From: Antedon mediterranea
Taxonomy: Eukaryota > Animalia > Echinodermata
DNA: 64,000 nucleotides
Assembly: GCF_964355755.1 (NCBI RefSeq)
Contig: NC_092675.1
Coordinates: 8,489,812-8,553,811, forward strand
Reading direction: 5' to 3'
The position numbers and the translations under genes are program-made. How positions within the stretch are numbered: the stretch's first letter is position 1; every line of letters starts with the position of its first letter. Below, piece after piece: positions 2,216-42,940 of this stretch. The notes under the pieces were generated by a model. That model had not been told where the DNA came from. It searched no databases and saw only the letters and a program-made list of their open reading frames with translations.

Positions 2216-2250
<35 letters not shown>

Positions 2251-20200: not shown

Positions 20201-23200
20201 GCATCTTAAGATAGTAACTACTTACATTTGAGATATTCTAAAATCAATTAGATTTCTATTGTTATGTGTTTCTTATTAATACTTGATGTATGTATTATTT
20301 TTTGTTGTTGTATGCAAAATAAATTCATTACTAAATTATACATGTGTAGCATTCCTAAATCTGCGCTGGTAGGAGTTTAATTTATAAGAGATAAAAACGA
20401 GGTATCTTTCAGCGGTTACCTAACGCATTTAATAGGTTGCTTGTTACTTCTTTGGATATTGATTTATTTTATGATAGTTTAAATGTATTTAAGGGTAAAA
20501 TTGTTAAATCTTTTTCATGTTGTTATCTTTGTTTATGTTTGTGTTGTTTATATGAATACATTTTATATTTATTATGTTTAGATTCAACCTGTTAGTGGCG
20601 GTTTCATCGCTGTTGGTTGACAACTGAATAAAATAAAATAAATAGTAAACATACAAACAAAAGTTAACATTATTTATTTACCTTCATCAACATCTGAAGC
20701 AGATACTTCAGTAAGCAATGCTCCTGAAGCAGCATTTTCTCCGACTGACACATTATAAATTTCCGGAGTAAATTGTGGTGCATTATCATTAACATCCATC
20801 ACAATGATTTTGACTGCCACATCTATAGAGTACTTTCCATCATTTACCAATGATTTGAGGGAATACTCAGAGATAGTTTCTCGATCTAATGAGGTTTTTG
20901 TCGTAATTTCTCCAGAGGTAATATTGATTGTAAATTCTGTTGATGTGTTTATGAATAAAAATGACAAACTTGAGGTAGAGTCTATATCTGAAACTTGTAC
21001 CTAAATTAAACAGAAACATTCATTTGCTTTAAAATAACAGGATAATTTCTTTCACGTTTATGCTAAAGCCACTAAACTAAAGTAGAACAATACAAATTGT
21101 CCTTTTTATAGGGATTGGCCGTAGTGTTAAACATTATAAATAGCCCTCATTTGTTACATAGAAACTTTTCCACTAATAAGGGTCCCAAAGGAATGTACAG
21201 AGTACTACTACTGTCACTCCAGTTGTTTATAGGCTTATTTTGATTTTGACAAATTAAGCACATAAAACAATATGTACATTTTTATAAAACATCCTATCAT
21301 ATTTTTTATATGAACAAAATTCTTTCTGATTTTCAATGTTTATTTTTGAATATTTCTTATATATTTTTATCGTTTTCTTGAATGCTTTGTATATAATTAT
21401 GATTGTGACCAAACCAATGAATTAATTAATATATAAAGTAATACATTGCATAGATTATTTACTACATATAATGTCTATTTAATTGCTTTGTTTGAGGTAC
21501 CTAGATAGGCATAAAGACAGAAAGTAAGACATTATCTAATACATAACTTAATCATTACCATTCCAACTGAAGTCCCTATTGGCGAATTTTCATTTACTGT
21601 AAAGATAAATTCAGAAAGGAGCGATACTGGAGGATTGTCATTGACGTCAATAACCATAATTGAAATTTCAGCCAAGTTTGTGGCACTTTGAGACACATCT
21701 CCACCTGAAATACACAAATAAAATACAATTTTTCAGTACAAATCATTTAACAGTATATACAAGTTGGAGCCTTATTAATTAGTTTGCCATATCATCACAT
21801 TTTACAAGTGAGATTCTGTAAACCTTTGAAAATAACCCCAAAAAACTTACTATCTCTAACATGAACAAAGAGTGTGATGAAGCTAGAGTCTTCTCTGTCA
21901 ATTTCTGTCACTGTAAACAATTCGCCTGTGCTATCATTTATGAAAAAGGCTACATGTGGAGGATTTAGTGTGTATACCAGATCACTATTTTTCCCTTCAT
22001 CAAAATCAGTTGCTTGAACCTATAATTAATAGCATGCAAGATTATTGTGATTGGTATAAAAGTGGTTTTAGATAAAAGAGAAAATAATGTAGTAATTCTA
22101 ACAATCATAACACACAAAAACCTGGAAAAACAAAATTGACAAATGACTATACCTGTAACAATAAAGCAGGTGAACTTCCCTCGGTTAAATTAACAGAGTA
22201 AGAGTCCTGGATCCATATGGGGAAATTATCATTTACATCCAATACTGTGATTATAACAGTAGATTCTGTGTGCAGACTAGGCTGATGAAAATCCTCAGCT
22301 CTTATAAATAAAATGTACGATGCCTTTTCTTCACGATTTAGATGCTTGCTAAGTATTAAGTCACCTCCAGATGAACTCAGAGTAAATAATTCTGAAAATA
22401 ATTAAAAATATACTTATTAGGTATAGATTATCAGTCTTATGCACATTTCGAATTTAGAATGAATGAAGTATATCAAATAAGATTCCTCAAGTATATTGGA
22501 AACATTAAATTACAGCATTGATATTTTTAACATTATCTGGTTTTGAGATTTTTTCATCTGTCAGAGATGATAAAAAGATGGAAGAAGGAGGGCTCTCTCG
22601 ATTTCTGGATAGGTAAACGTTACATACTGACTGTCTATGAAGTATAACTTTCATTTTTTCATTGTCTGTTTCTACACTTGTTAAGAAATGTTGATGTATT
22701 TTATGATATTTTTTTTCATGTTGCTTATGATTTGCTTTTGTTAATTTATGAGTATGTTTCTCTTTAAATTTTGAATGAAATGAAATTCACTGAAAAACTG
22801 CAGAAAGGTGAAGTGGAGTGGAGTTGTGGCCTGGTGGTTATGGAGTGGAGTTGTGGCCTGGTGGTTATGGAGTGGAGTTGTGGCCTGGTGGTTATGGAGT
22901 GGAGTTGTGGCCTGGTGGTTATGATGCTTGGCTGCCAATCCAAGGGTCCTGGGTTCAAGTCCTGTCATATGTCAGGATTTTTTCTAATGACAATTTACAA
23001 CTCCACTCCCAAAGACTTGTAATAAAGACTTTGTTTATGTAGAGCATTGTGTGTATATGTTTGTCTTGTGAACAGGATTGCCACCTTTAACCCTTTCACT
23101 GCGGAGCGTTATTCCCACCTCTGTGCGTAATATATATTTAAGAAAAACATATGATATTTTAATTAATTGCAAAAAAATACTAATTGAGATAATTGTGTAA

Positions 23201-26200
23201 TTATTTTTGTGGCGTGTGATGGGCAAAGGGTTAGTCTACAGTTAGGTATTAAAAAAAAAAGTAATTTGCATATTGATGACGTCATGTGACGTCATTACAG
23301 GTATTTTGGATTTCGTTTTTTTTATCAAATCAATGATAAAAACTATATTTTCTATAAGAAATTCTTATGGAATACGTTTTTCCAACTGGATATTGATGAA
23401 GATACGTATAAAAAATAAAAATATAAAAAAAAATTGAATTATTTTTATTGTTTTATAAAAATTATGCACAAATCAAAGTTTTGGGTCAAAATCGTGAAAA
23501 TAATGACATTTTCGAAAAATTCCCTATAGTACAAAAACTAACTATTTTTTCAGAATTTTTTTTTTTTGCGTGTTGTGATAAACACCATGTTGCCCTATTG
23601 GAGCTGGTAAATTTGTGTTACTTTCAAAATGGCCGCCATTACGCTACTCAACACAACTTTCCATAATAGAAATACTATTATATACTATACTATATATAAT
23701 ATAACTATAGAGGGCGCATTATTTTCAAGACGATAATACAACTATAGAGGGCCGTTTTTTTTGCTGGAAAAATTTTTTAATGACTTCCAAAAATATTCAA
23801 GTTCATCGAAAAAATACAGAGGGTGCTATATATTATAGGCAAATACGATTAAATCATTGTTTTGCCCATACCCGGTAATACCGGGTATACGTATTTCAAC
23901 GACGTCTGTTTATACCCGGTAGTACCGGGTATACGCAGTGAAAGGGTTAAGAAGGATAGTGATTGAATTTGCTTATGGTTATCCTTGGCAATTTGCTTAA
24001 ATATATAAAATAAAATAAAATAAAAAAAATAACAACAAAATTTTACCATTCTCATTGCCAGAAATAATTGAATATTTGATTTCAGCATTCAATATTGAAT
24101 CTGCATCTGTAGCTGATACTTTACCAATAGAGGTATCTGGCATCAAATTCTGTATAAAAAGATGTATGAAATTTACATAAATACTGTAGGTCATTGTAAT
24201 AATAACGATAACAAAATTGACAATTATATATCCTATTATCCTTGACATGAGAAATAACTATTGATTATGTTTGGTTGATAAAAAGTGTTATTTTCTAAAA
24301 TATAATTCAAGATGGTCTAAAATTAATGAAATTTAATTGTAAAAAACATTAATTTAATGTTATATAATTAGTAACAAAATTATGATTACTTATTATAAAC
24401 TAATGCTTACATGCTTAACAATTATAAAATATAAATCCGTAAATGTTAAATGTATTACCTCCATGACTTCAAAATTGTACTGTTCTTTGGTGAATACTGG
24501 AGCATTATCATTCACATCTTGAATGAATATTTCAACAATAGCTATTGCCATACCAGTCCTAAAAACACCAATAACAACAGTTCATATTAGTAACAGCAAA
24601 AGAATCAACCGTATTCTCCGTATTGTTGATCATTTTGAACTGTGAAGCTTTTTCACCTTTCTATTTAATGTTCACAAGAACCAATAAATGTATATTTACT
24701 TACGCAGGTGGAAATGGCAATGATATAGCTTTAAATGTACTTTTTATTTACTTACGCAGGTGGAAATGGCAATGATATAGCTTTAAATGTACTTTTTATT
24801 TACTTACGCAGGTGGTACTGGCAATGATATAGCTTTAAATGTACTTTAATTATATTTACTTACGCAGGTGGTACTGGCAATGATATAGCTTTAAATGTAC
24901 TTTAATTATATTTACTTACGCAGGTGGTACTGGCAATGAAATAGCTTTAAATGTACTTTAATTATATTTACTTACGCAGGTGGTACTGGCAATGATATAG
25001 CTTCAGCACGAATTGTTAATGTAAATAAAGCTGTAGTCTCATAATCCAGTCGTCCAGTAGTAGATATATTTCCAACTAATGAATCAATAATAAAAAGCCC
25101 CTATAGAAACAATAACAACAACAATGTAAATTATCTTTTTACACAATGTATGTTGAATTTATACCATGCAATAAAAATTACTATAAATTATCAATGATAT
25201 TATAATAATTACTCCGAAAAAAGTTAGGCAAACCATAATGAATGTTTTTGAATATTTATGAGTACAATGGTACAAATAATTTCATAAGGTGAAATATAAA
25301 AGACTATGCGCATGAACGCTAATATAACAAAATTCAATAGGAACATAACAAAATCGCACTCTTGATATAGAAAGAGTTCAATTGAGTAGATATTGAATAT
25401 CATGTGACCCACATTCCTCAAATCAAATGACAAGAATTTATTCAGATGTTCTATGATAATCATCCATGTTTATTAGTGGACCCTTTGAAAAACTTCAATG
25501 TTATAAATAATAAATTTAAATCAATAATACAAGATTATTTTACATCATCATTTCCGTCAATAATTGAATAAGTTACAGCTGTGTTGTTGATGAGCTGGTC
25601 CCTGTCATTAATGGTGACTATGTAAACTTGTTCTCCTACTGTTGCATTTTCAGGTAAATATGCAGTGATTAAATCTAAGAACAAATATAAAAACAAGTAC
25701 AACTTATAGCTGTTTCTTGGTTTACTAAGTGGTTTTTATATATGTATAAATTCATTACTATAGGAAGTCTAGAAAAACATATGTATGTCAATCCTGTACA
25801 AAAACATTCAGGCTCATCATAGCAGATGACGAAAAGAATGAATAAAATTGTTTGTCATTTCTTTGTACAGTACCACCATTCTGGCATTCTCTTACTCAGA
25901 GACGGTGTGTAGGCCAGAACAAGGAGAAAAATAATATAGATTACTTTTTGAAATTTATAGTAATTTAATGAAGTAATATAGTGGATATTATATCACACAC
26001 ATTTTTAAAATTGATGATCATCCTTTTTGTCATATTTTGCATCTCATACCTCATATAAATATGATAATAACAATTAATGATCAAACTTCAAATGGATATT
26101 TTCTCATTTTAATCTTTATTTGTTCATATTACTTACGATCTTCAAATACAGGGTCATTATCATTGACATCTGTAACTGCAATTGTAACAATAGCAAAAGA

Positions 26201-29200
26201 TGACATCTGATTTAAACCTTGACCTCCATCCATAGCAACAACCTATGAAACAAATTAATCAAATTTAAATATATTTAAATCAATCAAATACATTTTCATT
26301 GATCCATCATAATTCATGGGATAGATTGGCCAATTATATGGCCAATTACATTTGGATACTTATTTCAAACCTTGCAGTTTCCTTGTGTTTATTACCATAG
26401 AAGATCACTGTTTTCGAATGTGCACAGATTTTTTTTTTTTAATCAAAATCAAAAACCCTTATAGATTAAATCATTTTGTTGCTAGGGGCTCCTTTCCATA
26501 TTATATATAACAATCTTAGAACACGCCATGAGTTCGGTATCCCTAGATTTCACGAGGTAATCGTTCAAAATTGTTTATTTATATAATCTGTTAGTGTTTC
26601 TGTGACATCTGTAAATTATATTTTAAATTGAACAATAGAATTTCAATCTTCTAATGTTTTTAGTCTACGTATATTTGATGCGAGTGTTATAACATTGATC
26701 ATAGTGACATTGTTATTTTTTGTATCATTTATAGGTTTTAATGTTTTTTATATATCTATATACTTGGTTGTAATTTTATGGTGTGAAAAACTATTATTGT
26801 TAAACTTCAATATTTTGTTGTTGGATTGCAATAAAGTTATTCGTACTATATTGGTACTGAAGTTAGGAGGAGGATAGAGACTTAATAATCATAAAAAGGG
26901 GCTTTTATCAAGAATTTTATCTCTAATTTTCTATCGTGATAGATTCCGCAATTAAGCGGCTGCTGACATGATGAAGCGTTAGCAAGCCAATCAACCAATA
27001 GAGAGTGGGCGACCCAAGTCATGAGACTGCGGTATACAGCAGAGTTCATTAACTGTGTCATTTGATATAATCAATGTCTCATTTCAGGTTTTCTGGTACA
27101 ATATAACTAATTTTTATCCATTTTTTTTTTTTTTTTTAAATAATTTATTTTATTTTTATTTATGCCATTTCTGTCATTTGCCTTTGGAATTGAATTAGAA
27201 CTTTGTTATGAATGTATTATTTTTACTCACTTCAAAAACAATTGTATGCATTTCACCATCTGCATCAAGGGCTGCTATTGAGGAAATTTTTCCAGACACA
27301 GCATTTACTGTAAAAAAGCTATTTGGTTGTCTCAGTGAATAAAGAATTGATGGTGTTCCGAACAAAGAACCATCGTTATCTGTTGCTGAAACATCCAACA
27401 CTGTCTCTCCATTTGCTAGATTTTCTGGCACAATTGCTTCATAGCTTGGTTGCTCGAATATAGGTGCATTATCATTTATATCCTTTGTAAAAAACAAATA
27501 CAAACATGACATAGTTAATGCTGCCAATGAGAAATAAAAGCTGCCAATGAAGAGGTTTGTATTATTACCTAAAGCTGTTTTGCATTCATTAATTTGTTAA
27601 ATAATAATACATTCCATAAAACATTTCTGAAAGACCATTATATAAATTAAATACTCACAGCAATATAGACATTTATAGTAGAAAAATCTTGTAGACCTGC
27701 TGAATCTTCAGCTACCACTGTCATAACAACTGGATTCATAGTAGTAACCTCAAAGTCTAAGGCATCTATTGTGTAAACATATCCATTGCCATCATTGGTT
27801 GTTGTTATGATGAAGTTGTTGATGGATGTAGTTGTTTCTTTAGTTCCGTTTGAAAAAGTTTGTAAGAAATAGTATCTTACATAATTGTTGGAAACATCTG
27901 GATCATTTGCCTAATAATAAAATGCTTTGAATTAATTTTCCCAATCCAAAAATTAAAAACCTAGCCTTATTAATTAAATCTATCGAGTGAAAACAAAAAT
28001 GAGATTAAAAACAGAATACAAATACAGTGATTGTATAACAACAATGCGCTCGGTAGTGCCCGGTATTAAACTTGAACTGTCTATTTGGCAGTTTTTTATT
28101 ACTAAATAAATTGCATAAAACAAAAAATTTAACATCCAAATAGCATTTAACATGATGTTAGCAACATTTTTTATCATAAAAACCCTACCGGTTGTCCAGG
28201 CTTAGTATTAGTATGACATTCTATATACTGTATCCCAACAGCGTACTGTATATAACTTATCAAACCAAGCCTGCGTACCACCTACATGGCTTGGCACATG
28301 ACCAACAATATTCAAGTTAAGATGGAAGTGGGGAATAAATTTAGAAATAATAACAGTAGGTGTGTTTGATCCATAAAATAAAATAAATATACTTTGCCAA
28401 TGTTTCTGGTTAAAACTATGGGCCTTGGCAGCTAGGGCTACAATTCAGTGATTGCCTACTATTTTGGAGACAATTCCCATAGTTTTAATCACAAACTCTC
28501 AAGACAAAGAGTATTTGTATACGACTTACTCGGACAATTGTAACTTCCTTTCCAACACTATACATTTCATTTTCATTAATGTGAGCCTCATATAATTGCC
28601 TTGTGAATTGTGGAGGATTATCATTGACATCCATCACATTCACTGTTACATTCTTAAATGCGCTCTTGGGTGGAATGCCACCATCTACTGCAGTCACTGT
28701 CAATAAATAGTTTTGTTTCTCTTCGTAGTCGAGTTGCTGTTCCACTGAAATTTCACCAGTTGTTGAATTGATCTCAAATCTGCAAAAGTTTCAAAGTGTT
28801 GGAACTTTTTAAACACAAATCATTCTGATAAATATTGGAACAATATATATTATTATTAGTTTGCTGTATAATCATAATGCTTTTATGAACATTTTGTAAG
28901 TAGTTTATGTCAGCTGCTGCCTTGATGGATTTCTTAGAGAGTTTTTCCAACTTGAGTACCTAAGTCCTCGATTGACACAGAAATGTTTAAGGCGAGAAGA
29001 AATTATGGTGCATACCTGTCTGACCCACTTAATGTGTAAGTGACCTCACCAGGTAACTCCAGATCATTGTCTATAGCATTGACCTTTATTACAAAGTAAC
29101 CAATCTCAGCACTTTCATAGAGATCAGCAAAGTATGTTATGGAGGGATCAAACGTTGGTGTATTATCGTTTTCATTGATTACATTAATCATGATTGATGC

Positions 29201-32200
29201 TTCACTGCTCAATGTTTCAGTGGTAGAATCTGTAGCAATAATCTGTAAGAAAAAATATGTTAGTCCCAGATTATCCTTCTTCTCTAAATGTTCATATATG
29301 GTTTAGTTCTCTACATTCCATATTAAATCCTAATTTTTGTCTAATTAAGACGCAATAGGAGATTGAATGAAGCTGAATACGGGCCAAAAAATACAGGTTA
29401 GGTAGGTTTCTTTTTTTCTTCTCAAAAAAGTGTAGCTTAGCTAGGTGAGAATATTTTCTAAATATTTTCCTGAAATTGCACTCTTCTCTAAAAATGGTGT
29501 TCATTCTGGAGGGAGACCATATGAAAATCAGGGCGGGTGCTGTATATACCAAAGTGATGGTGTACTGATAATATCTGACTAGCACGTGATAGACTTGGGT
29601 TTGAACCTATCTGTACCATACTAATTGCATCCTTAGGAAAGATGCTTTAATCTCATTGCCTCGTCCTTCGAATGGGATGTAAAGCCATTTGTCCTGTGTA
29701 CATATAGTGCATGTTAAAGACCTTTTTACACCATTTGAAAAGAGATGGGGATATTGTAAACCTGGAATTTGGTTTTTTTTTTCAAATTTTTTGTTGAATA
29801 TGTCATTTTAATGTCACGTAATAGTAATTCACTTTAACCTAAAACTAGATCGAAAAAAAAAAAATGATTTACCTGAAAAAATGTAATTTAAAGTAAAAAA
29901 TACCTAAATTGTCTGTCAGACAATGGTTTTTGGTTAAAATTAAGTGTTTTGTTAAATAATTTTTATTTTTTTTTACAGAAGTGAATAACTTGATTAAAAC
30001 TGCAAAATGGTGTATTTAAAGTCTGATTTTATTAATCTTTATTTTTTCATGTTTTTCGGGGACAATATATCTTTAACAAATCAACCCCACCATTGTACTG
30101 AGGTTTTTGAGAATATGAATCTCGTGCCCTCTGACATTGCACTCTTACCTTGTGAGTGTGAGTGTTAAGCACTGGACCAATGTCAAGCAAAACAATGCAG
30201 TGCAGCTCAGGGTTTTTAGCATCGCATGTACAGTTTTAAAAGCACAAGGAAATAACAGAGTAAACCTATAAATTTCCTTTTCAACAACGTAACATATCAT
30301 TTTTTTAATGAATCAGAGTATACTTACTTGAAGAGAGTATGATTGTCTACTTTCATAATCAATGGATTGTAAAAGAGTAAGGTTAACCACTGTACTACCG
30401 GTAGCTTGCAGTGGAATCGGACTAAAAAGCTCAGAATACATGCCATGGAGGCGCAGTGTGAAATCTGCATTGGTTCCCTGATTATAAGATACAAACAAAT
30501 ACAATATTTCAATACCGCACAAATTAAGTTCTAAAATGGTAAAATGTTTTGTTATAATAAATATAGTCATTTGAAATAAAGTATGTTAAAGTATAATGTT
30601 ATCATCATTGTTAACTTACCAAATCTGCATCACTCACTACAATCTGTAGAGGTAACTGTTGCCCATGTTGAGCAAATTCTGATATAGAAATATTATATTG
30701 TGATTTGCTGAAAGTAGGTGGCTGATCACTCACATCCTCTACCGATATTGAAAAAGTGGTTTTAACAGTAGCATTACCACCTACTTCAGTAGCCTAAAAA
30801 TAGATTTTGAAATAAAACACATTTATTTTCTTTATTTACTCTGGTTTTTCACTCTTTGAAATTTAAAGACAATATCTATGCATTTTTTCGATATAATTTA
30901 AGGTCACAAACTGCAATTTATGTAACAATAAATACTACATGTGCCTATTGCGATAATAATTTTCGCCTTAAAATGTGAAAAATAAGTTGACTATAATAAT
31001 TTAATAAGCTCGCTATAAATACCAGCAAGCATTGCGCATGGATTGATATTTTGATTTTGCTTCTGTAATGCACCCACTTTTGGTGGGATCGTGAAAATAC
31101 CAGGTCTTCCTCGACTTGTATTACAGACTCTGCCAAAAGACAATTAATTCAGTAACAAAACAAAGCCAGGCTAGGCCTACAAAACTGAGCCTAGCTTTTT
31201 ATCAGTAAATAACCATAGAATGTACATTTTTTTAGGATTACCTGGTTTAATGTTTTTAATATATAATAATTTTTTAATATATATATATGCAATATTTTCA
31301 GAAAATGTCAACAATTTAAGAGATAGTGTCTTTACAAATACATAATCTTTGTAAAATGCTTCAACTGACAAATTGTACACCATTCTGAATTGATGGGATG
31401 CACCTATATGGTGTGTTTACAGAGAAAAGCAATGAGAAACAAATCACACAATTTCTGTGATTTATTAAGAATATTTAGGAAACATGAATGTGTATAATTA
31501 CCATCACTGTAAGTTGTATAATACCAGAGAAGCCCTGCATTTCTCGGTCAATGACATCAATAACAGTTATGTTGCCAGTAGTTGGATCAATATGAAAGAG
31601 GCCTGCCTCATTTCCCTCAACAATACTGTAACTGATCATGTTTGGAACACCAGTGTCTTGGTCAACTGCACTGACTGTGGTGACAACAGTACCCTAAAAG
31701 ACAATGTTATATATTACATAATGCTATGTGTGAGGAATGATAGAGAATACAGAACAATGATGATTCAATTTAATGGGTTGGTGAACAACAATAATGAAAA
31801 ACAGATCAAAACTGTAATATACTCTCTTTTTTTATGATTTTCACTTACTATTGGTGCATTTTCTTGCACTGTTGTAGTATAGGGTTTATTTACAAAAACT
31901 GGCAGAGAGTCTTGGACATCTAGTACATCCAAAATAAATGAAGTGGTATTTTCAAGAGGTGGTGTTCCAAAGTCCTGTAAAAGTAAATTATGCATTTCAA
32001 ATACTCAATTTATAATGTTCATGTTATAAGTAAGTCATTGTACTATTGATATTATAATATAGTACTACTTAAGCATTACAAACTATATGAGCTATAGAAG
32101 TTAACTTACATTAGCTTTTATTGTAAACTGGTAAGTTTTTGTGACCTCATGGTTCAATGTTTCCCGTAAGCGAACTTCTCCAGATACTAAATCAACTGAA

Positions 32201-32650
32201 ATAACTGAAGTATTCTGAAAATACAAATATTGGCAACTTTGAATACAATATGAGTATAAGTACAGTAGTATCTCAAAACAAAAATGTTATTCATTTGATA
32301 AATGCTAGTATAATTAGTAAATTATTAACTATGTCACTAGAAAACGTCACATGTACTTGTTGATTATCAATGATATTTACTACTTGTTGATGTATCAATG
32401 ATATTAACTACTTGATGTGATTATGAAACAAGTATCTTTGGTAAATGTAGCATAACTTGAATTTTTACACGATGGTATATAAAGTTGGTTCGTAGTTTCG
32501 GTACTGATTTTAACCACCTGATGAAACACTGTTTACTAATTGAGTTGAGTTGGATAATTAGTTATTGACAATTAAAATCAATTTAGGTTAAATGATTTGC
32601 TCCAAATAGGGGTATTTTCTGATCATTTATTTGCGCTATATAAATCTATC

Positions 32651-32681
<31 letters not shown>

Positions 32682-35600
32682 CAAACATATTGATTGGCGA
32701 TGAATGGAACATTCTAACCTCTCAGTCTCCAAGTATAAATATTTGGTATAACACAAAGTAGGTACATTTATGGTCCCTTGGGGGATAAACTCAAAACCTT
32801 TGACAATAAATACATAAACCATTTTTTGTTGCCTTTTGAAATGCAAAAATGTCTTACTGTGAGTGTGGGTACTGTTATTTTTAGATATATAAACGAACAA
32901 ACTTTATTATTGACAGTTGCTTCTAAACGTTAATTGTATTAATTAATAATTCCAAAAAATATAAACATTGTAGTCGTGTATCGTGTATAAATCGTGCCAT
33001 ACCTCAAGTATTCGATATTCAGCACCTGTAATGCCTGTATCACCGTCAGTTGTTGAGATAGTAGTGATGACATAACCAACAGGTGTATCCTCCGCTATTG
33101 TAAATATATATGGTGTATTTACAAATTGAGGAGCATTGTCATTAATATCTAGAATAATAATAGAAGATGGAGCTTCAGTCTGTAAGAAGAAAAAAGCATT
33201 AGAGAATATTACCAAGTGGATTAATATACAAATAATGAATGTTTATGAGTGCAATGGTACAAATAATGGCACGAGGTGAATGATGAAAGGTTATATCAAC
33301 GAGGCAAAGCCGAGTTGATATAACCTTTCATCATTCACCAAGTGCCATTATTTGTACCATTACACGAATACAAAACATTCATTATTTGTTTTATATAACA
33401 TCTAGACGTTTTTTTTTCGTACACAAAAATGTTTCAAAAAGTACTATTTAACGATCGTTGAATAGTGCGTACTATTGCACGCCATGTGACCCACATTCGT
33501 CCAATCAAATGACAGGAATTTATATAGGTGTTATATAATACTGTATACTGTACATAGAATATGCAATTTAACCGCAAAGTTATTAGCATTTATATAACAC
33601 CTAAATAAATTCCTGTCATTTGATTGGATGAATGTGGGTCGCATTGCGTGCAATAGTATGCACTACTAAACGATCATTTAATAGTACTTTTTTTCCTGTA
33701 CGAAAAAAAAAAATCTTTTCCCGTTGGGAAAATATTTTGTTTTATACTATTGCTTTTGAAATACAACAGCGCCACATATTTTGTACTTTCGCCATGATTA
33801 GAATATTATGACTGGTTTTTGCGAAATGAAAGTACATTTCTGGAGAGATATATGTATGTATATACTAATTTAGATCAAATTTAGATCAGTTGTAGGATTT
33901 TGATTAAGTAATGGGAACATCTCTACAAGACGTGGAATCGTTGGAAAAAACATAATTAGCCTAGATGAGTTGATTAATTGTCTGTCTAAGTTTTGCCTTT
34001 CAGCCAAGCTGGGCCTAGGCCTGTTAGTATATTAGGCTAGGCATAGCCTACAGTAGGCGTTTTAGCCTTGCTAGGCATAGGATTGTTTGATCGTTTGTTG
34101 ACATAATTATTACTAAAGTTGGTGCGTTTATAAAATCCATATAAATATAACATTCAATATAATATTATTAAAAACCAAATGTTACTGTTTTAATCAATGT
34201 GAATCAAATGTATGCATTTGGCTATAAGGGCTACATTTTATTTGATTCAAATGACAGGAACTATTTACTGTAGATGTTATATAGAACAAATAATGAATAT
34301 TTTATATTTGGTAAATGATGAAAGGTAAAATATCAACTCGGCTTTGCCTCGTTGATATATAACCTTTCATCATTCACCTCATGCCATTATTTGTATCATT
34401 AGACTCATAAGCATTCATTATTTGTATAATATTAAATTAGTGATTACATATTCCAAAATGAAGTAGCAAATGAAATTCATTATTTCTATGAATTCATTTA
34501 CATTAATTTAGTATATTTATTAACAACAATTAATTCTACAAAAAGACTAAACACTGTTTAAGTCATGTAGTGTATGTACTGTATACTATACTCACTAAAA
34601 TGTCAACAAGAACAAAAATTAAGTTTCATGGGGTTTGCTAATTTTGCTTGTTGGGAGTAGTTGTCAGGATTCGATCATGTAGGCCTTTCATGCACATTGG
34701 TTAATTGTAGGTCATGTGTAAAATGCTGAAATTATTATTTTTTTTTTTATGACAAAAAACATTATATACTTACAGGATTATTTGTACCATCACTAATTGT
34801 AAATGAAACACCTATTACTATATCAGTCTGAAAATGAATCCACAAATTACATATTATATTTAACATTGATATTACAAAAAAATAAGTAATGAAAGGACTC
34901 AGAAACTGAGTAAGTACTTGGCAAATATATCAGGGAAAACATTATTCGGAGAGAGATAGGGCTCACTCTTGATATTTAAAAAAAATGCGGGAATAACCTG
35001 CAACTTGCAGCATACTGGGCTGAATTACGCAAAGGTGTGGACGACACAAGCAACAACTTTCTTCTACACTAAAGGTCCCTTCGTGTCGAGGGCTGCCACC
35101 TGTTCGTCTGTCCACAACGACAAGGGATGAATAAGGTTTATCGCAAATTGTGTGAGCGATGCATATGGGAAGGGTTTGGGAGCCATAGCACCACCACCAG
35201 TATATAAAGTTTGTATTATACGGTGGCGCTATTGCTCCTAACCCTTCCCATCATGCATTGTGCAATGACAATTCTCACGAAATCAAGGTATTTGCGATAA
35301 ACCTTATGGACCTGTGCACTGGGGTAACCCCCTACTCTTCCAAAAGATGAACTGGGTTCTTAAAAGTGCACACCAGATGCACTCTTGATCTCCACCTTTA
35401 AGTCCTCCACAACAATGGTCAAGGAGTGCCCTCTTGAACCTGTGCCGATTGTATAACTATGGATTGGTGCTCTCCCCGGCGGCCTTAGCCACTTGACTGA
35501 TGTTTTGGTCCATGTCAAAGAATATATATCCATATTAAAAGAATACAGAGGGCGTACTATTTAATATATCTTGTATGAATAACACTTTTTTTATTTGTGA

Positions 35601-38600
35601 AGTTCATGAACAGATTTCCTTGAATTTCAATAGACATGTTCTGTAAGATATCTATTTACATATACACTGAAAAATGATACTATACTGTACTTAGCAAAAT
35701 TCTATTTTACAAGTAAAAATAAACAAGCGGTGCACAATTCACACAACTTATGTAAATGAATAAGAGCTGGAACCAAACTATTACCAACCAAATTTGAATA
35801 ATTACCAATCAAGCATACTGCTTATTATGGTGTTAATGGTATATGCACAAATTAACCTATAATTTGACCATGCACTGAAATTATAGCTTGCTTGAATACA
35901 AACGAAATTATTACTGTAGTCTTGAAATAATGCATGCGAATAGTGTAACAGTCAAATAATAACTATTGTAGGTATGAGTCACGTAAGAATGATATTTTGC
36001 AGTTATATAGACATCATATTATTTCCAGTAGGCTGGTTGCCTATGGCCATAAACACATATTTTCTATTTTTTTTTTAGAAATAAAGTTTACCTCAGCATC
36101 TAATTTCTGGAGAATTCGAACTTCACCATTGAAAGGTCCAACAGATAAATAGTTAGGTTGTGATTGATCCTGCTTTATTATTCCATAAGTAACTGAAGCA
36201 CCCTCTGGATCACTTCCTGATAGTGTTAGTATCAGACTCCCTATAAAAAAACAAAATAAAATAATAATTAAAAAATCATAATAGATATTTCATGAAAAAT
36301 GCATGTGTTGTAAATGAAATCGTAAAGCTGTTGCTGTTACACAGTAGACCATTTTTTTTTTCTTATTCTTTACTGTCAAGAGAAACATACAAAACAGACA
36401 GAAATAAGTTATAATTATAATTATTAATAATAAAATGAAATTATAATGCTAATAATAAACTGCATTTTATTTATTGTAGTTCATTTAGTTTTTTGCACTT
36501 GATTTTTAAACCTAAACAAATTTAAAACGTCTTACCAACTGGCTTATCTTCTTCAATTAGATATACCGTTGCTGGTTGGCCTAAAGTATCAAATTGTGGA
36601 ATATCATCTGTGGGTGCATTATCTGTTAAAAATATTGATTTGGATCATTTAATAACAAACTATGATTAATATAAGAGTACAATGGTACAGTAATGAAAAG
36701 TAAATTTAGGTAATGGCATTGCTAATAAAAGTAAGAAGGAATATTTTTAAAATACATAATAACATAATAATGATTCATTGTTAAATATTTAGCTATGCTG
36801 AGACTCGGCTTGACAGATAAACTTTATGTCAAGGGTCAACATAAAACTAAAATGTGTTCTTCGCATGTGTAATGTGTGCATTGAAATTTTGAAATGCTCA
36901 GATTATTTCTAATCTATTTAAAGAGCATGTTTGAAGAGATATAACAGTGACTTTTTATTGTTAGGCACACACATTTTTATCCTGTACAGCATGTACAGTA
37001 GAGTAAGTAATCTAGAAATACCATTCTTGCAATTGATATTTGTTTTTCATATGTGATAAATTCCATTCATGTTCATGAACTCTGAATGTAAAGAAACAAT
37101 AAGCAATTTAATGCAAATTTTGTGTAAATGCCCATTTAGAATATATTTTAGCTCCTCAGAATGAAAGTTGAGCACCTATTTTTGTATGCATGTGCAATTT
37201 TGGCATATCGTATCTCACATATATTTTCTCGATTTCAAATTGTTATTCCTGAAACTTTCATGAGATACAGTAGTTAACTGTGCCCAGACATTACCAGAAC
37301 CAGATGACTGCGACATTAGATTGTTTATTGTACAATCATATGACATTTTTTAATTATTATTTATATTTTGAAATATGTCATGTCGAAGATTGAAAATTTT
37401 ACATCATAAACATTGCATACAATTGTTATGTTTATGATATGTACTCTTTATGATTTGTAATGGTTTTTAACATAGTTGTAGCATATAAAAAAATTGTTAA
37501 AAACACATCATTATCAATGATAATTTTAACACAAAAAGAAAAAAAAATGTTACAAGACATGTTTCAAAAGAACTGAGTTTTCAAATGGCGGGTGTCGTTG
37601 GGGAAAAAATTAGTCACCTGAGTACCAACAAAAGCCTATGCATACACATAAGCAGTTCTTACACAACCTATTGTTTGAAAATTTAGTTTTTGTGGGTCTG
37701 TTGTCAGTGATGATTATGTAATGCCTTTGACACAGATATAACCGCTTACAGTATTATTACAAACTTTTTTTCTTGCTGCTTAAAATTCAATAAACAATAA
37801 TTGAATAAAAAATAAAAAGTTTTTGTTGACTAGTATACTACTAGATAAATCAATTCAAATTTTCTAAAGTGTAATATCTGTGACGAAAGAGTCTTGAATG
37901 AGTTTAGTATTGGGAGATTTGACAATCAACTCATCATGATAAATCATCATTACAGTACGTTAATGATTTTCTATGGATCTTGTCTTTTTATACTGTACAT
38001 TCACTACAGTACTGTAGGTTAATACTTGTGTACTGCCATAATCCTGGCAGGACAACAATCACTTAATATTGCTCTTATTTGGTAAAAAAAATAAAGAGCA
38101 TTGCAATATAGTTAGTACAGTAAAATATATATCATCATGTTTCTGCTGCAACAAATTCATAAATTATGTTTATATTGTACACATGAGAAATTTCAGAGAA
38201 GATACACAAAGAAACCAAGTTATTAAAGAATTCTCACACTGTAAAAGCAGATAATATAGAGAGAGTCAAATCACTATTCAACATGCAAACTAACATTAGT
38301 TATTGAATTATCATCATTATAAGTCATAGATATCTATAGTTGGCTAGCACTTTAAGAACCTTGTAATGAAAGAAAACATTAGTAATAAAAACAATATTTG
38401 TTTAGAGCAAGTCTATGAAAAAGAAACTAAGTTTAATGACAAGTGCAAGCAACCTTAAATTCTTGAGCATTATACCAACTTGATCATGCGTCTCAATTTT
38501 CTAAAGCTTTAGATTTATAAGCGTGAGAAAATTGTCAAGATTCATCAATACCCAGATTTGTATTGTCATTGTCTAAATAGATTCGTCTACCATTATAATC

Positions 38601-41600
38601 TGTTTTGACTTTTCAATGAAAAGCCAAATAGGTAAGATTACTGTCTATATCCTTTAACAATATTATACAATTACTGTACAAATATATACAAAATTTGTAT
38701 ATTGTTAAAGAAAATGTAATTTTTATATTGCTTATGGCTGTTACAGCAATCTTAAGCATTGTAGTTTGTAGTCTTCTCTTTCTGGCTAAACATTTTAATA
38801 AAAGATTCTATTTTTGCAAGAGTTTGTATATCAGAATGCCAGCGATGGTACTAACTGATACAATCTTTTCCAATGTTATTATTATATTGACCCATAGAGA
38901 GAGGCCTATCAGTATTGACCATCAACTAAACAATTTGCATTGATAATAAATTTAAGTAAATTCTTAAATGAATGAAATAAAATGACTTTGCAATATGTCA
39001 TTTAAAATTTATTCAGTAGACATAGATGCAGCATTTATTAATAAGTCATTATCTATTTAAAACTGTTGACACTATTAGTATAAGAAGCATTCAAATTAAA
39101 GAATTAAAATTATGAAACAAATATTATCATTTATCTAGGAAAAACGTAGTACTTTTATCATGCATCAAGCTTGTGTTAATATAAATACACTGATAAGTAT
39201 TATTACCGTATTTATTCGAAAAAAAAACGCCCTTCATTTGGAATAAACACCCCCACCCTTTGAATAATAAATGCCTAGAAGCAATTATTTATTTCCTTGA
39301 TTAAACGCCCCAACCACATGCACATTACACAATATTGTACATTGACATGATCTACAATTTACTAAGAATTTTTTATACAATTTTTACTGTATTTTATAAC
39401 TTAATATCAATTGTGTTGTATTTATTTGATTACTGTATACAGTACTGTACATGTTAAGTTCAACGTAAATTATTTTCTTTCTTTCCTAAACTATTACAAT
39501 AATATAAATTAATAAGGTACTTAAATAAGGTACAGTAGGTTATCATATTACACCAAAACAAAAAATAAACGGCTCTTCCAAATAAACGCCTCCTTCGCAT
39601 AAAATCCCAACCTAAAAACCCTCTTATATTAATACAATATACTGGCGTTTATTCGAATAAATACGGTATACAATTTAAATAACTACTTTCTAAGCCTTAA
39701 TCAAGGGCGGATCCAGGGGTAGCATTTCCGCTTTATGACAGAATTTAATTATGAACAACCTTTTAATATCTATTTTTGACATACTATTAGTATTATATCT
39801 TAGCGCTCCTATAAAAGATTCTGGATCTGCCCTTGATACTAAAGGTACATATAGTTACTGTTAAGTATACCCAGATGTGAATAATAAGCCAAATGAAGTC
39901 CCAGAACTGTTTCCCTACAATACTTAGTCTACTCTAGCAAAGTATAAATTACTTTATTCACCCCAACTCACACAAATCACAGTTTTTTCCGATATAGTTA
40001 GGTTTGCAAGTGCATTCGTACGATGTACCATTGTCAGTACAGGTTCCACTATCACAAGGAGATGGGTCGCATAATGAACGCGCTGAAATGGTTTCCAAAT
40101 ATAGACATTTGTAATAGACATGTAATGTAATAACAGACTAGATTAATTATCAAGTATCAACTATAGTAGTACTGTAGGCATACAGTATAGAATTGAGTAA
40201 TCACTTTACAATTATAGGAATAGAACAGGTAATCAATATCATTAAACTGTGTTTATTAATTCAATAGTTATAAACTATACTAGCAGTAGGTTACTATCAG
40301 ATTCATGTGTAAGCAGTAATTGATGACATTACTTAATGAATTGTGTAAAACAAGAGGGGAAGTCGCATAATAAGTTGAAGGGGTCACTAACAACTGGGTT
40401 CATATTCACACAAAGGCCTAGGAGAGAAGAATTGGCGGAGCCAGACAATCTGCTTATTGCATTTCACCATGAAACCCATATTTATATATTTTTTTTTCAA
40501 TATTAGGGCGACCATAGTGTTGCCCGGAAAAACTCTTGAGTCCTTAAAAAATGTTACTTAGCGTCAGTATGCTTTATTTTAAGTATATTAAAGGCAAAAA
40601 CATATTTTTCTATAATTATTTTAAAAACTTACACAATTCACAATTCAATCCCACAAATAAATCTGGGCACTGACAATTGTAGAAAGTGTCTAAAGGTACA
40701 CATGTACCACCATTAAGACACGGAGAGTTGTTACACACTTCGCTATCTGAAACAGTTAAATTATTCCTTAGAGGCCGGTTAACACAACATGTAGCAGTGA
40801 ATGTAATGCTTCCAATCAAACATTCAATTCAGTAACAATTTCTTTCCCAAAATATGTTTTTATTATGATTCGAGGCTCTTTTACATTTTGTATAATTCAC
40901 TGACCTCTTAAGTCTGAGGTGGGATTTGAACCAGACATTGAGTAAGCAGGTTAATCACATGTTAGCACTCTATTATTGTATTGTTTGGTCCACCCAAACC
41001 TCCCCCTAACCCCCGCCTACTAAAAAAGAGACAGTGAACTTAACATGATTCTTTGAAGTGAATGACCCAATAAATCTATGCAATACTGTATCTCATTCAT
41101 AACATTACTAGCCTTAATAATAAACACACTTAATTTGATATAAAAAAACATGTTGCAATATAATCGCTACATAAGAATTATTATTATTATTGAAATACCA
41201 ACAAAACTATTTAATCAAAGAAACATGTACTACAGACATGATGATACTATACTATAATGCCTCCATAAATAACCAGTATAACACATCCTCCTTATTAATT
41301 TGCTATGAAGCATTATTTGAAATCAGTAATATTTTGTTATAGTATAACCAACTCCCTGGTATAATAAACATGAAAGAAGAAAAAATATGAATTATACTTT
41401 ATATACTTATTGAAAGGATTAATTTAAAATTAAACATTGACAAAGTAGATACAGATTATCAACTTACAATTATCACAGTCTTCTCCAGAAAATCCTGTGA
41501 TACAAGTACAAGTATAACTATTAGAAGATGCTGTAAATGTGCATATACCATCATTCTTGCAAGGATTCGGCTCACAACCTATACCAGATGAAATTGGAAA

Positions 41601-41654
41601 AAACAAACACATAATAACAAATAAAATAGTCCTCCGTTGCATTTTCAATTTCAT
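141..41654 (-). CDS. CDH23: Cadherin-23-like giant cadherin (signal peptide + 3 EGF + ~32 EC repeats; 3' end outside window)
   Basis: GT-AG exons read manually, in transcription order: 41654-41468, 40746-40633, 40082-39972 (SP/EGF), then 36622-36536, 36240-36092, 34827-34774, 33179-33003, 32214-32110, 31974-31849, 31693-31502, 30793-30620, 30477-30328, 29242-29016, 28779-28530, 27910-27659, 27482-27231, 26242-26137, 25674-25544, 25100-24976, 24558-24459, 24149-24047, 22391-22153, 22019-21851, 21704-21559, 21000-20682, 20065-19571, 18182-18006, 17643-17390, 16777-16682, 16261-16010, 15750-15622, 15425-15297, 14877-14653, 14520-14299, 13731-13621, 13455-13278, 12783-12650, 12445-12239, 11911-11801, 11678-11559, 11428-11323, 11149-10958, 10542-10430, 9990-9537, 9382-8868, 8337-8218, 7738-7561, 7017-6908, 6618-6478, 6349-6256, 5671-5471, 5281-5064, 4883-4700, 4261-4038, 3229-3032, 2021-1787, 1235-975, 418-141. 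Repeated DxNDNxPxF, LDRE/LDYE and AxDxD motifs. CDH23-like signatures (recalled): [10 protein letters not shown] in EC1, DVQD linker after EC2, INENDN after EC4, and [12 protein letters not shown] / [22 protein letters not shown] in the last repeats. Cadherin part is high confidence; the join to the EGF exons is inferred. Confidence 0.88.
462..606. mobile_element. Foldback MITE, PIF/Harbinger-like
   Basis: Imperfect long TIRs aaagccttgtttacactatcaaactt.. / ..aagtttgatagtctagacagagct, with inner arms aaaatgtgatgtgacca / tgggcatatcacacttttg. Confidence 0.6.
2167..3007 (+). mobile_element. Non-autonomous Helentron-type element (HINE/DINE-1-like), copy 1
   Basis: 5' T-run, subTIR agtcgcgtg (2172-2180) with local hairpin agtcgc/gcgact, (GTCY)n microsatellite, 3' subTIR cacgcgact (2980-2988), short terminal stem ggctgtggcc, then TT. 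Near-identical inverted copy at 18551-19361. Confidence 0.8.
3502..3822. mobile_element. Kolobok-like MITE
   Basis: 15-bp TIR agatgtattgtcccc / ggggacaatacatct with TTAA on both sides. Partial related copy at ~29775-30076. Confidence 0.75.
8066..8156. repeat. 22-bp minisatellite x4
   Basis: Unit ggtagggtacatatctgagaca repeated four times with small variants. Confidence 0.85.
8510..8789. mobile_element. piggyBac-like MITE
   Basis: TTAA TSD (8506-8509, 8790-8793); 12-bp TIR ccctttgaagac / gtcttcaaaggg with CCC..GGG ends. Confidence 0.8.
10035..10290. mobile_element. Partial copy of the hairpin-ended dispersed repeat family
   Basis: Aligns by eye to 33588-33850 (ataacacctaaataaattcctgtcat..cgccac.tattttgtactttcgcca). 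Confidence 0.7.
13790..14210 (+). mobile_element. 5'-truncated L2/CR1-group LINE 3' end (decayed)
   Basis: Translates to [12 protein letters not shown].. and [34 protein letters not shown], typical of the L2 ORF2 C-terminus; followed by a (gatt)n tail. Confidence 0.75.
17043..17225. mobile_element. Foldback MITE, PIF/Harbinger-like
   Basis: Long imperfect TIRs aaagcgtggttcccactag..acgcaag..accaatcacaagcga / tcgcttgtcattggt..cttgcgttgcgt..ctagtgggaaccaagcttt. Confidence 0.75.
18551..19361 (-). mobile_element. Non-autonomous Helentron-type element (HINE/DINE-1-like), copy 2
   Basis: Reverse complement of 2167-3007 with few substitutions and different microsatellite lengths. Confidence 0.8.
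22816..24035 (+). mobile_element. tRNA-derived SINE with 4x tandem 27-bp head, split by a piggyBac MITE
   Basis: Unit gagtggagttgtggcctggtggttatg x4 (22816-22923, A-box-like), stem cttgg/ccaag, B-box gggttcaagtcc. Body runs to the TTAA at 23087; probable remainder 23951-24035 ends in a (taaaa)n tail. Confidence 0.7.
23091..23946. mobile_element. piggyBac-like non-autonomous element
   Basis: TTAA TSD (23087-23090, 23947-23950); 13-bp TIR ccctttcactgcg / cgcagtgaaaggg; two subterminal palindromes atacccggta-N-taccgggtat. Confidence 0.85.
24692..25002. repeat. 52-56-bp tandem repeat x6 containing an exon end and splice donor
   Basis: Unit tatttacttacgcaggtggtactggcaatgatatagctttaaatgtactttaat; minus-strand donors (ac on plus) at 24702, 24754, 24806, 24862, 24918, 24974. 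Confidence 0.92.
25238..25460. mobile_element. Deleted copy of the hairpin-ended dispersed repeat family
   Basis: Shares ttatgagtacaatggtacaaataat and catgtgacccacatt..aatcaaatgaca with 33222-33540. Confidence 0.6.
29555..29752 (+). mobile_element. tRNA-SINE remnant with Nin/Deu-like central domain
   Basis: B-box-like gggtttgaacc, then tccttaggaaagatgcttta..cgaatgggatgtaaagcc..gtgcatgttaaagacc..gaaaagag, resembling the recalled Nin/Deu SINE core. Confidence 0.55.
29775..30076. mobile_element. Kolobok-like MITE, partial copy
   Basis: Similar to 3530-3826 (cattttaatgtcac.taatag..ctgattttattaatcttt..ggggacaata.atctttaa). Confidence 0.65.
33222..33540 (+). mobile_element. Hairpin-ended non-autonomous DNA element (internally deleted)
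   Basis: About 80-bp-arm hairpin at 33228-33389 centred on gaggc-aaa-gccga; related copies at 33588-34430 (inverted), 47620-48348, 25238-25460 and 10035-10290. Confidence 0.75.
33588..34430 (-). mobile_element. Hairpin-ended non-autonomous DNA element (longer copy, inverted)
   Basis: Both ends are reverse complements of the ends of 33222-33540; hairpin centre ctcggctttgcctcg at ~34337-34351. Confidence 0.75.
34960..35500 (-). mobile_element. tRNA-SINE with Nin/Deu-like domain, interrupted by a MITE
   Basis: Minus strand reads tcagtcaagtggctaagg (A-box-like), ggttcaagag (B-box-like), gtgcacttttaagaacccagttcatc..gaagagtaggggg. Left boundary is approximate. Confidence 0.5.
35131..35307. mobile_element. 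Palindromic MITE
   Basis: Perfect 18-bp inverted ends ataaggtttatcgcaaat / atttgcgataaaccttat, plus inner arms atgggaagggtt..atagcaccacc / ggtggcgctat..aacccttcccat. Confidence 0.8.
39206..39666. mobile_element. Tc1/mariner (pogo/Tc2-like) MITE
   Basis: TA TSD; TIR ccgtatttattcga..aaacgcc / ggcgtttattcgaataaatacgg; internal aataaacgcc/aataaacacc repeats. Confidence 0.8.
39702..39835. mobile_element. Short hAT-like MITE
   Basis: 15-bp TIR caagggcggatccag / ctggatctgcccttg with one mismatch; TSD not clear. Confidence 0.6.
39972..40082 (-). CDS. Exon: EGF-like repeat 3 (not in ORF track)
   Basis: 111-nt phase 1-1 exon: [36 protein letters not shown]. Acceptor tttcag, donor T|gtgagt, no stop codon. 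Confidence 0.88.
40633..40746 (-). CDS. Exon: EGF-like repeat 2
   Basis: 114-nt phase 1-1 exon: [37 protein letters not shown], six Cys in EGF spacing; ag/gtaag boundaries. Confidence 0.9.
41468..41654 (-). CDS. Exon: signal peptide + EGF-like repeat 1 (putative first coding exon of the cadherin)
   Basis: [24 protein letters not shown] (basic n-region, hydrophobic core, small-residue end), then [34 protein letters not shown]. Ends T|gtaag, phase 1 (187 nt). Confidence 0.9.
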
Positions 41655-41880
41655 TTCTGCTAAACTTCCAGGAAAAAAATCAAAATGTTATCCTTTACAT
41701 CAGTCTTGCTGATTTAATAATACATGATGCTTTTGTTGATATTGCAATATTTAACTATCGAGTTTTCTAGTTATGTAATATATAGTCCAAGTGAAGTGGT
41801 ATCGCTGATGTGACTTGCTTTTTCTGTATCCGACTCTAGTGATTTACTTCTGTCAGATTGGGAGAGAATAGGCTGTACTC

Positions 41881-41895
41881 ATTTGCATAACAACT
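41881..41895 (-). promoter_or_regulatory. Octamer (POU) site with adjacent Sox-like half-site upstream of the SP-EGF exon
   Basis: Minus strand AGTTGTTATGCAAAT about 230 nt upstream of the ATG; TATA-like tatata near 41778-41784. Motif match only. Confidence 0.3.
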
Positions 41896-42687: not shown

Positions 42688-42940
42688 AGTCAATTGGTCA
42701 AGCGGTTAAGGTAGGGGGTGCCAACGGTTACCGTACCTAAAGAAGGGCCAACAATATTGACATGGGTTTGAGGCTGATTTGCTCCTAGTTCTGGTGGTGG
42801 AACAAGTTTGCTTGGATAGCTATAAACCAGTCCAGTGTACACAGTTTGCCTAAAAACCCAGTTCATCATTTAAGGTGTGAACTCACCCAGTGTACTCACC
42901 CAGTGTGCGCCCCCAGTGTGTGTAAACACTGGGGTTTACA
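42688..42940 (+). mobile_element. Degenerate tRNA-SINE-like remnant
   Basis: tggtcaagcggttaagg (A-box-like), gggtttgagg (B-box-like), and aacccagttcatc shared with the SINE at ~35350. Confidence 0.4.

What the first reader, a model, noticed from the sequence alone, without database searches (positions are those of the whole stretch)
36536..41654. CDH23-like cadherin apparently capped by three N-terminal EGF repeats
Seen: the first cadherin exon (36622-36536, [32 protein letters not shown]) starts in phase 1 and has no signal peptide. The three exons upstream encode SP+EGF1, EGF2 and EGF3, contain no stop, and the last ends T|gtgagt in phase 1, giving an in-frame ..NCDL-Y-NAPT.. junction over a 3.35-kb intron. 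I found no convincing terminal exon or alternative SP exon in that intron. Known: in Fat, CELSR and invertebrate classical cadherins the EGF/LamG modules lie next to the membrane, and vertebrate CDH23 uses its free EC1-2 tip to bind PCDH15 in tip links. Inference: an EGF cap on EC1 is an unusual architecture that could replace, gate or extend tip binding in an invertebrate mechanosensory or adhesion filament. EGF2 has the O-fucose consensus (CLNGGTC) and EGF1 an O-GlcNAc-type motif ([10 protein letters not shown]), so binding could be glycan-tuned as in Notch.
Basis: partly seen in the sequence, partly recalled or inferred. Interest (0 to 1): 0.85.

Follow-up and report, generated by a model that had tools for sequence, protein, structure and literature searches.

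The report
Feather-star cadherin-23 with one EGF cap
This feather-star gene is cadherin-23, a relative of the vertebrate hearing tip-link protein; the only splice seen puts one EGF domain, not three, in front of its tip, sea urchin and sea star models carry a similar cap, and two further intact EGF exons are likely optional add-ons.

Summary
The four exons are as described: three intact EGF exons, all splice sites in phase 1, and no other signal-peptide exon. The three-EGF protein is not what the data show. One contig in run X1 joins exon 1 (signal peptide + EGF1, donor 41468) directly to the first cadherin exon (acceptor 36622), skipping EGF2 and EGF3. No joint at 39972/36622 was listed. The one-EGF model is identical at 3494 of 3494 residues to RefSeq XP_071953449.1 (cadherin-23-like, Antedon mediterranea), which has 32 EC repeats, a MAD-like domain and a membrane segment. 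So an EGF cap on EC1 is real, but in the one observed form it is a single EGF. It is not peculiar to this species: 5 of 5 urchin and sea-star CDH23 sequences in a published supplement have an EGF directly before EC1, while 3 of 3 non-echinoderm ones there do not. I found no text that remarks on it. EGF2 and EGF3 are likely optional cassette exons; their inclusion is unproven. The O-fucose site lies on a skipped exon. Binding, mechanosensation and glycan tuning are untested. The scan's earlier notes held nothing on this.

The parts
41655..41860 (-). 5' untranslated part of the exon that carries the start codon; contains in-frame stops, so ATG 41654 opens the frame in this transcript
   Evidence: X1 contig runs 41860-41468 unbroken; stops upstream in frame
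41468..41654 (-). E1: signal-peptide-like segment plus EGF1 in one exon; O-GlcNAc-type motif between Cys5 and Cys6; phase-1 donor used in the observed splice
   Evidence: Pfam EGF 31.8 bits; 62 of 62 residues identical to XP_071953449.1; joint at 41468; signal peptide judged by eye
40633..40746 (-). E2: intact EGF2, phase 1-1, carries the O-fucose consensus; skipped in the observed splice, likely a cassette exon
   Evidence: Pfam EGF 34.8 bits; acceptor 6.7 and donor 4.3 bits; covered only by an unspliced contig in X1; absent from XP_071953449.1
39972..40082 (-). E3: intact EGF3, phase 1-1, weak splice sites; skipped in the observed splice, likely a cassette exon
   Evidence: Pfam EGF 27.3 bits; acceptor 3.9 and donor 1.6 bits, both below the range of the 54 training exons; unspliced contig only
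39953..39960 (-). Stop codon reached by reading through the E3 donor, overlapped by AATAAA; possible end of a short secreted form
   Evidence: the chance of an AATAAA within 30 nt is about 0.08 given 9 in the intron
36623..41467 (-). 4845-nt intron of the observed one-EGF transcript (contains E2 and E3)
   Evidence: joint 36622/41468, ends CT..AC on the plus strand, in X1 only
36536..36622 (-). E4: first cadherin exon, start of EC1, phase-1 acceptor
141..36240 (-). 54 further exons encoding the rest of EC1 to EC32; the MAD-like domain, membrane segment and tail lie beyond the window's left end
   Evidence: model; identical to XP_071953449.1 over 3494 residues; 32 repeat starts and a PF23206 hit

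Best explanation
This is the crinoid cadherin-23 gene; the splice seen and the RefSeq model put a single EGF domain between the signal peptide and EC1, and the two further intact EGF exons are likely optional cassettes that would lengthen the cap to two or three in some transcripts. Shown: orthology, 32 EC repeats, the E1-to-EC1 splice, intact phase 1-1 E2 and E3, and EGF-before-EC1 in urchin and sea-star sequences. Because signal peptide and EGF1 share one exon and all three donors are phase 1, every route from these exons into EC1 keeps at least EGF1. Inferred: the protein is a long calcium-stiffened adhesion filament whose EC1-2 tip still binds its partner (probably the animal's PCDH15). 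On this reading the EGF is a small disulfide-bonded extension beyond the N-terminus that adds a contact or spacing and does not replace the cadherin interface. The cap probably arose once in the echinoderm stem by phase-1 exon shuffling, and its length has varied since.
For: One X1 contig of 428 nt (depth 10.2) consists of 393 nt on 41860-41468 plus 35 nt on 36622-36588, leaving no letters between; the joint is absent from X2, X3 and X5, which are one sample and behave as DNA. The one-EGF model matches XP_071953449.1 at 3494 of 3494 positions, and its 90% cluster has 1 member, so no longer isoform is held. EC1-4 groups with fish, amphioxus and hemichordate CDH23 (SH-aLRT 95, 16 rows). CDH23 crystal fragments map in order from 5W4T at 82-382 to 8TRI at 3148-3599, and the first 13 listed Foldseek hits of the tip model are N-terminal CDH23 structures. 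E2 and E3 keep six cysteines, frame, phase and GT-AG, and share no detectable DNA similarity with E1 or each other, so they are old and likely maintained by use. E3 has weak sites, as cassette exons often do (general knowledge). Supplement of PMC10734073, read by eye: EGF directly before EC1 in 5 of 5 urchins and sea stars, in 0 of 3 for acorn worm, amphioxus and mouse; the partial Anneissia model begins at a cysteine at the same spacing.
Against: No contig joins E2 or E3 to anything, so their inclusion is unproven. The splice rests on one contig in one run whose RNA status is a guess, and the RefSeq model may draw on the same data. Variation in the second individual does not show constraint: 1 change in E2+E3 against 2.7 expected, P about 0.25, and that change is non-synonymous by my reading. 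The PCDH15 arginine that I recall as R113 of the vertebrate handshake is absent in 8 of 8 invertebrate deuterostome PCDH15 sequences read by eye, so the vertebrate interface cannot simply be assumed. The site-0 DXDXD motif reads D-P-E-G-A.
Confidence: 0.6

Rival explanations
1. One reading: all three EGF exons are constitutively spliced onto EC1.
For: All exons are intact and in phase, and the frame is open.
Against: The only splice seen skips E2 and E3; the RefSeq protein lacks them.
Confidence: 0.04
2. E2 and E3 are unused relics of a once longer cap and are never spliced in.
For: No inclusion junction; not in RefSeq; weak E3 sites; no measurable constraint; sea stars have longer EGF/LDLa caps from which remnants could derive.
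Against: Both exons are fully intact with no indel or stop although they are old; the X1 indels listed in the region all fall in introns.
Confidence: 0.2
3. E2 and E3 serve a second, short product: E1-E2-E3 read through the E3 donor to a stop and poly(A) site, giving a secreted three-EGF peptide of 141 residues, while the membrane form uses E1 alone.
For: The E3 donor is the weakest in the model (1.6 bits); a stop follows four codons later with an overlapping AATAAA; an X1 contig runs from E3 174 nt into the intron.
Against: AATAAA is common here (9 in 3349 nt; about 0.08 by chance); that contig is also unspliced at the E3 acceptor and overlaps further intronic contigs; no E1-E2 or E2-E3 joint was listed; read-through leaves an unpaired cysteine.
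Confidence: 0.15
4. On mechanism, a separate question from splicing: the EGF cap has taken over tip binding, to matrix or to a non-cadherin receptor, and the CDH23-PCDH15 handshake is not used in echinoderms.
For: The cap is present in the echinoderm sequences seen; the recalled PCDH15 handshake arginine is missing in invertebrate deuterostomes (by eye); the site-0 motif is altered.
Against: EC1-2 keeps the CDH23 EC1-2 fold; echinoderms retain PCDH15 (PMC10734073); the altered site-0 motif and the missing arginine are shared with EGF-less hemichordates and amphioxus, so they do not track the cap.
Confidence: 0.25

Closest known systems
RefSeq XP_071953449.1, cadherin-23-like, Antedon mediterranea (P0167)
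   Same: The same gene: identical over all 3494 residues encoded in the window in the one-EGF form.
   Different: The record has no E2 or E3; its name does not mention the EGF.
Echinoderm CDH23 of Lytechinus (XP_041485604.1), Strongylocentrotus, Acanthaster, Patiria, Asterias and Anneissia (XP_033109345.1), PMC10734073 supplement 1
   Same: EGF directly before EC1; Lytechinus has exactly signal peptide + one EGF + EC1 (by eye). Anneissia is 71% identical over EC1-4.
   Different: The trimmed Strongylocentrotus and sea-star sequences have further EGF and LDLa-like modules upstream; none are in this window. The authors regard the longer upstream parts as wrongly fused gene models.
Vertebrate cadherin-23 (tip-link filament, partner PCDH15)
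   Same: Orthologous and collinear from EC1 to the MAD domain; same EC1-2 fold; C-terminus ETHL resembles the fish ITEL end.
   Different: 32 EC repeats against 27 (27 recalled); EGF ahead of EC1 where mouse has the signal peptide directly; site-0 motif DXEXA instead of DXDXD; no evidence of hair-bundle function here.
Fat, CELSR and type III classical cadherins
   Same: Combine EGF and cadherin repeats.
   Different: Their EGFs follow the cadherin repeats: of 277 fetched proteins, mostly Fat and Dachsous types, only P0167 had an EGF motif before the first cadherin motif.
Lefftyrins of choanoflagellates and sponges
   Same: Recalled to carry LamNT and EGF domains N-terminal to cadherin repeats, so EGF-before-cadherin is not unprecedented (family name seen in PMC5097364; architecture recalled).
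   Different: Unrelated architecture (recalled: FN3 and phosphatase domains); no homology tested.

Membership tests
Cadherin-23 | EC1-4 groups with vertebrate CDH23 to the exclusion of CDHR2, PCDH15, Fat and Dachsous | tested here: met
   SH-aLRT 95, quick tree of 16 rows; CDH88C-type proteins were not included
Cadherin-23 | Long EC array collinear with CDH23, ending in a MAD domain, one membrane segment and a tail | tested here: met
   on P0167; the MAD domain and tail lie outside the window
Cadherin-23 | First two repeats have the CDH23 EC1-2 fold | tested here: met
   the alignment behind the model included a fish CDH23
Cadherin-23 | Calcium site 0 at the EC1 tip (N, DXDXD, XDX-top; motifs from PMC8691648) | tested here: inconclusive
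   D at the N position, D-P-E-G-A, and S-D-G; the third acid is lost, as in EGF-less hemichordates and amphioxus
Vertebrate tip-link CDH23 | Free EC1 N-terminus directly after the signal peptide | tested here: not met
   EGF1 precedes EC1
Vertebrate tip-link CDH23 | Handshake with PCDH15 EC1-2 and location in mechanosensory links | not tested
   no crinoid PCDH15 sequence was fetched; localisation needs experiments
EGF-like domain (PF00008) | Six cysteines with EGF spacing, above the gathering score | tested here: met
   for all three exons
Notch-type O-glycosylated EGF | O-fucose C2-X4-S/T-C3 and O-GlcNAc C5-X-X-G/S/P-Y/F/T-T/S-G-X-X-C6 consensus (bioRxiv 2021.11.02.463467) | tested here: inconclusive
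   O-GlcNAc motif in EGF1, O-fucose motif in EGF2 only; a motif is not a modification, and EGF2 is skipped
   not listed in 4 runs laid, of which only one behaves as RNA; contigs drop rare variants, so absence is not shown

The most novel reading that the evidence does not exclude
Echinoderm cadherin-23 carries a clade-wide, splice-adjustable N-terminal cap: in this crinoid one, two or three EGFs are chosen by cassette splicing, with the O-fucose site switched in on EGF2, and the longer EGF/LDLa arrays of urchins and sea stars that were dismissed as fused gene models are partly real isoforms. This would tune the reach or partner choice of a tip-link-like filament.
Probability: 0.25. Interest if true: 0.65.

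Novelty: new variant of a known kind. Interest (0 to 1): 0.35.

Why it matters
The CDH23 tip is the best-studied heterophilic cadherin interface, and in vertebrates it has a free N-terminus. An echinoderm-wide EGF cap shows that the tip can be extended. It offers a simple test (EC1-2 with and without EGF against the animal's own PCDH15) of whether the handshake predates vertebrates. Interest is held down because this gene and its one-EGF architecture are already in RefSeq and in a published sequence set, and because the striking three-EGF claim is unsupported. What is new is the observation that the cap tracks echinoderms, unremarked in the texts I could search, and two unannotated intact EGF exons.

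Tried and rejected
No whole genome was held. The run search listed no holder on record as RNA. The first laying over 27500-44000 showed only repeat-derived joints among the 15 shown of 328; the narrower laying exposed the splice. Protein search with exon 31693-31502 returned 14 general cadherins of at most 2000 residues. With exon 36238-36092, none of 17 candidates scored. Single-exon PDB searches did not single out CDH23. The representative search ranked mainly by repeat number, and the orthologues had to be picked out by BLAST. None of the searches fetched an urchin or sea-star CDH23, so those were read by eye from the paper's supplement, cut at 400 residues and trimmed by its authors. The fold prediction left EGF1 and the linker below pLDDT 50, so it says nothing on how the cap sits. 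No complex was predicted, as only fish PCDH15 was at hand. Rejected: an alternative signal-peptide exon in the intron; E2 or E3 as alternative first exons (no Met in their open frames); an upstream coding fusion in the observed transcript (in-frame stops); mis-assembly across the intron; recent duplication of the EGF exons. One exon of my first automatic model (7428-7353) was spurious and was removed. Ptychodera P0227, Sparus P0092 and the second Anneissia paralogue P0118 are N-truncated and were left out of the cap count. Earlier scan notes held nothing relevant.

Full report
Observation. The minus strand carries E1 41654-41468 (hydrophobic leader plus EGF1), E2 40746-40633, E3 40082-39972 and E4 36622-36536, with GT-AG sites all in phase 1. 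All three EGFs exceed Pfam's gathering score. A 58-exon model from E1 to position 141 is open for 3569 residues. The E3-E4 intron (3349 nt) is the longest of its 57 introns (median 438) and holds no convincing signal-peptide exon. Overlapping contigs of the DNA-like runs (36400-39370, 39343-39507, 39503-41800) tile it, so it is not an assembly join.

Splicing. Five runs hold the stretch, none on record as RNA. Laying X1, X2, X3 and X5 on 36400-41800 listed ten joints; nine lack splice-type ends or sit in repeats. One, in X1 only, runs from 41468 to 36622 with GT-AG ends, exactly at my predicted donor and acceptor. The contig is 428 nt, of which 393 lie on 41860-41468 and 35 on the E4 side. No joint involving E2 or E3 was listed, and both are covered in X1 only by unspliced contigs. 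X1's RNA status is a guess by the tool and contigs drop rare variants, so this shows that the one-EGF form exists and not that the others are absent. The 206 nt upstream of the ATG in that contig contain in-frame stops, so nothing is fused further upstream in this transcript.

Identity. The representative search and BLAST picked out Anneissia XP_033109345.1, hemichordate, amphioxus and fish CDH23 as the closest proteins. A search with the Anneissia N-terminus returned XP_071953449.1, cadherin-23-like of Antedon mediterranea. My one-EGF model equals it at 3494 of 3494 positions. It has the signal peptide, EGF1 and then EC1, 32 repeat starts, a PF23206 MAD-like hit, a membrane segment and a tail ending ETHL. 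Its cluster has one member. The RefSeq model may not be independent of run X1. Orthology is supported by a 16-row tree, by in-order mapping of CDH23 crystal fragments and by the fold search, whose first 13 listed hits are N-terminal CDH23 structures.

Distribution. In supplement 1 of PMC10734073 (parts 1-2 and search passages seen, most sequences cut at 400 residues, read by eye), 5 of 5 urchin and sea-star CDH23 sequences have a complete EGF directly before EC1. Lytechinus has signal peptide, one EGF and EC1; Strongylocentrotus and the three sea stars have further LDLa-like and EGF modules upstream. The partial Anneissia model starts at a cysteine six residues before the PTD motif, the same spacing as here. 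Saccoglossus, Branchiostoma floridae and mouse go from signal peptide straight to EC1, as do Glandiceps and B. belcheri. The cap therefore looks echinoderm-specific on this small sample. The authors call the long upstream thirds of most models incorrect fusions and accept the Lytechinus model as complete (section 6). The four uses of 'EGF' in their main text do not concern CDH23.

What E2 and E3 are. They are intact, symmetric phase 1-1 exons with no Met of their own, and they show no DNA similarity to E1 or each other, so they are old. Scored on matrices trained on the 54 downstream exons (acceptors 4.2-14.7, donors 3.5-11.0 bits, self-trained), E2 lies within range and E3 just below on both sites. 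Variation in X1 is uninformative: 1 change against 2.7 expected from 22 intronic changes in at least 1832 nt, counted by hand. I judge optional cassette use most likely, ahead of silent relics and of a short secreted E1-E2-E3 product ending at the stop and AATAAA just past the E3 donor.

Mechanism. Shown: one EGF is joined to a genuine CDH23 EC1. Inferred: the filament still binds through EC1-2 and the EGF extends beyond the N-terminus as an added contact or spacer. The handshake uses the EC1-2 tips (PMC8691648, passages); that its surface lies along the sides of the repeats, leaving room for an extension, is recalled. Against simply assuming the vertebrate interface: the site-0 motif reads D-P-E-G-A, and the PCDH15 arginine I recall as R113 is absent in 8 of 8 invertebrate deuterostome sequences. 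Both changes also occur in species without the cap. The fold model gave no information on the EGF-EC1 joint. The O-GlcNAc-type motif of EGF1 fits the refined consensus (bioRxiv 2021.11.02.463467, passages) and is in the observed form. The O-fucose motif is only in skipped E2. PMC10734073 reports that CDH23 is not appreciably expressed in the first 70 hours of urchin development; no function is known to me in echinoderms.

Literature. Ten full-text searches, on cadherin-23 with EGF, echinoderm, sea urchin, LDLa, tip link, invertebrate, lefftyrin, mechanosensation, sea anemone and glycosylation terms, found no text describing an EGF cap on CDH23. Additional file 3 of PMC10734073, which holds the domain diagrams (Fig. 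S4, S15), could not be read and may well show it. The 2006 echinoderm adhesome paper was not held. Lefftyrins are recalled as a precedent for EGF ahead of cadherin repeats (only the family name was seen, PMC5097364 passages). Other listed papers were seen as search listings only.

Verdict. Observation partly confirmed and interpretation partly supported. This is a real but single-EGF cap on an annotated crinoid CDH23, shared with urchins and sea stars, with two unannotated and probably optional EGF exons. New variant of a known kind, interest 0.35.

Noticed in passing
window 1103-1070, minus strand (exon 1235-975): A furin-type RKRR site sits in a loop of EC31. An R-x-K/R-R motif at the aligned place is also seen in Anneissia, Glandiceps and Branchiostoma belcheri, but not in Ptychodera, the second Anneissia paralogue or the fish. 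The ectodomain may be clipped near the membrane.
   Followed up: partly
window 51168-50833 and about 49660-49483, minus strand: Last exons of a SERINC gene directly upstream, on the same strand (Pfam PF03348).
   Followed up: partly
window 47053-46933, minus strand: Strong acceptor-donor pair beside a CpG-richer stretch (46500-47500); may be a non-coding upstream exon or promoter region.
   Followed up: no
P0048 and P0118: Anneissia japonica has two cadherin-23-like paralogues, both partial models. P0048 lacks about two repeats that this gene has, by eye near window 11678-10958.
   Followed up: no
P0057, P0227: Hemichordate CDH23 also has about 31-32 repeats, so the longer array looks ambulacrarian while the EGF cap looks echinoderm-specific.
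   Followed up: partly
window 45463-45977, 44491-44847, 24691-25003: Tandem repeat arrays with 77/158, 139/97 and 56 nt units; a dispersed repeat also lies in the E3-E4 intron at about 39200-39670.
   Followed up: no
window 62000-64000: GC-rich stretch (47-49% against about 31%) with short broken frames; two tested frames had no Pfam hit. Possibly an old mobile element.
   Followed up: partly
EGF3 (window 40082-39972): By eye, EGF3 has the 8-residue C3-C4 loop of the EC1-adjacent EGF in three sea stars, whereas EGF1 has the 10-residue loop of the urchin one. This is a weak hint that both are old modules of an ancestral multi-EGF cap.
   Followed up: no
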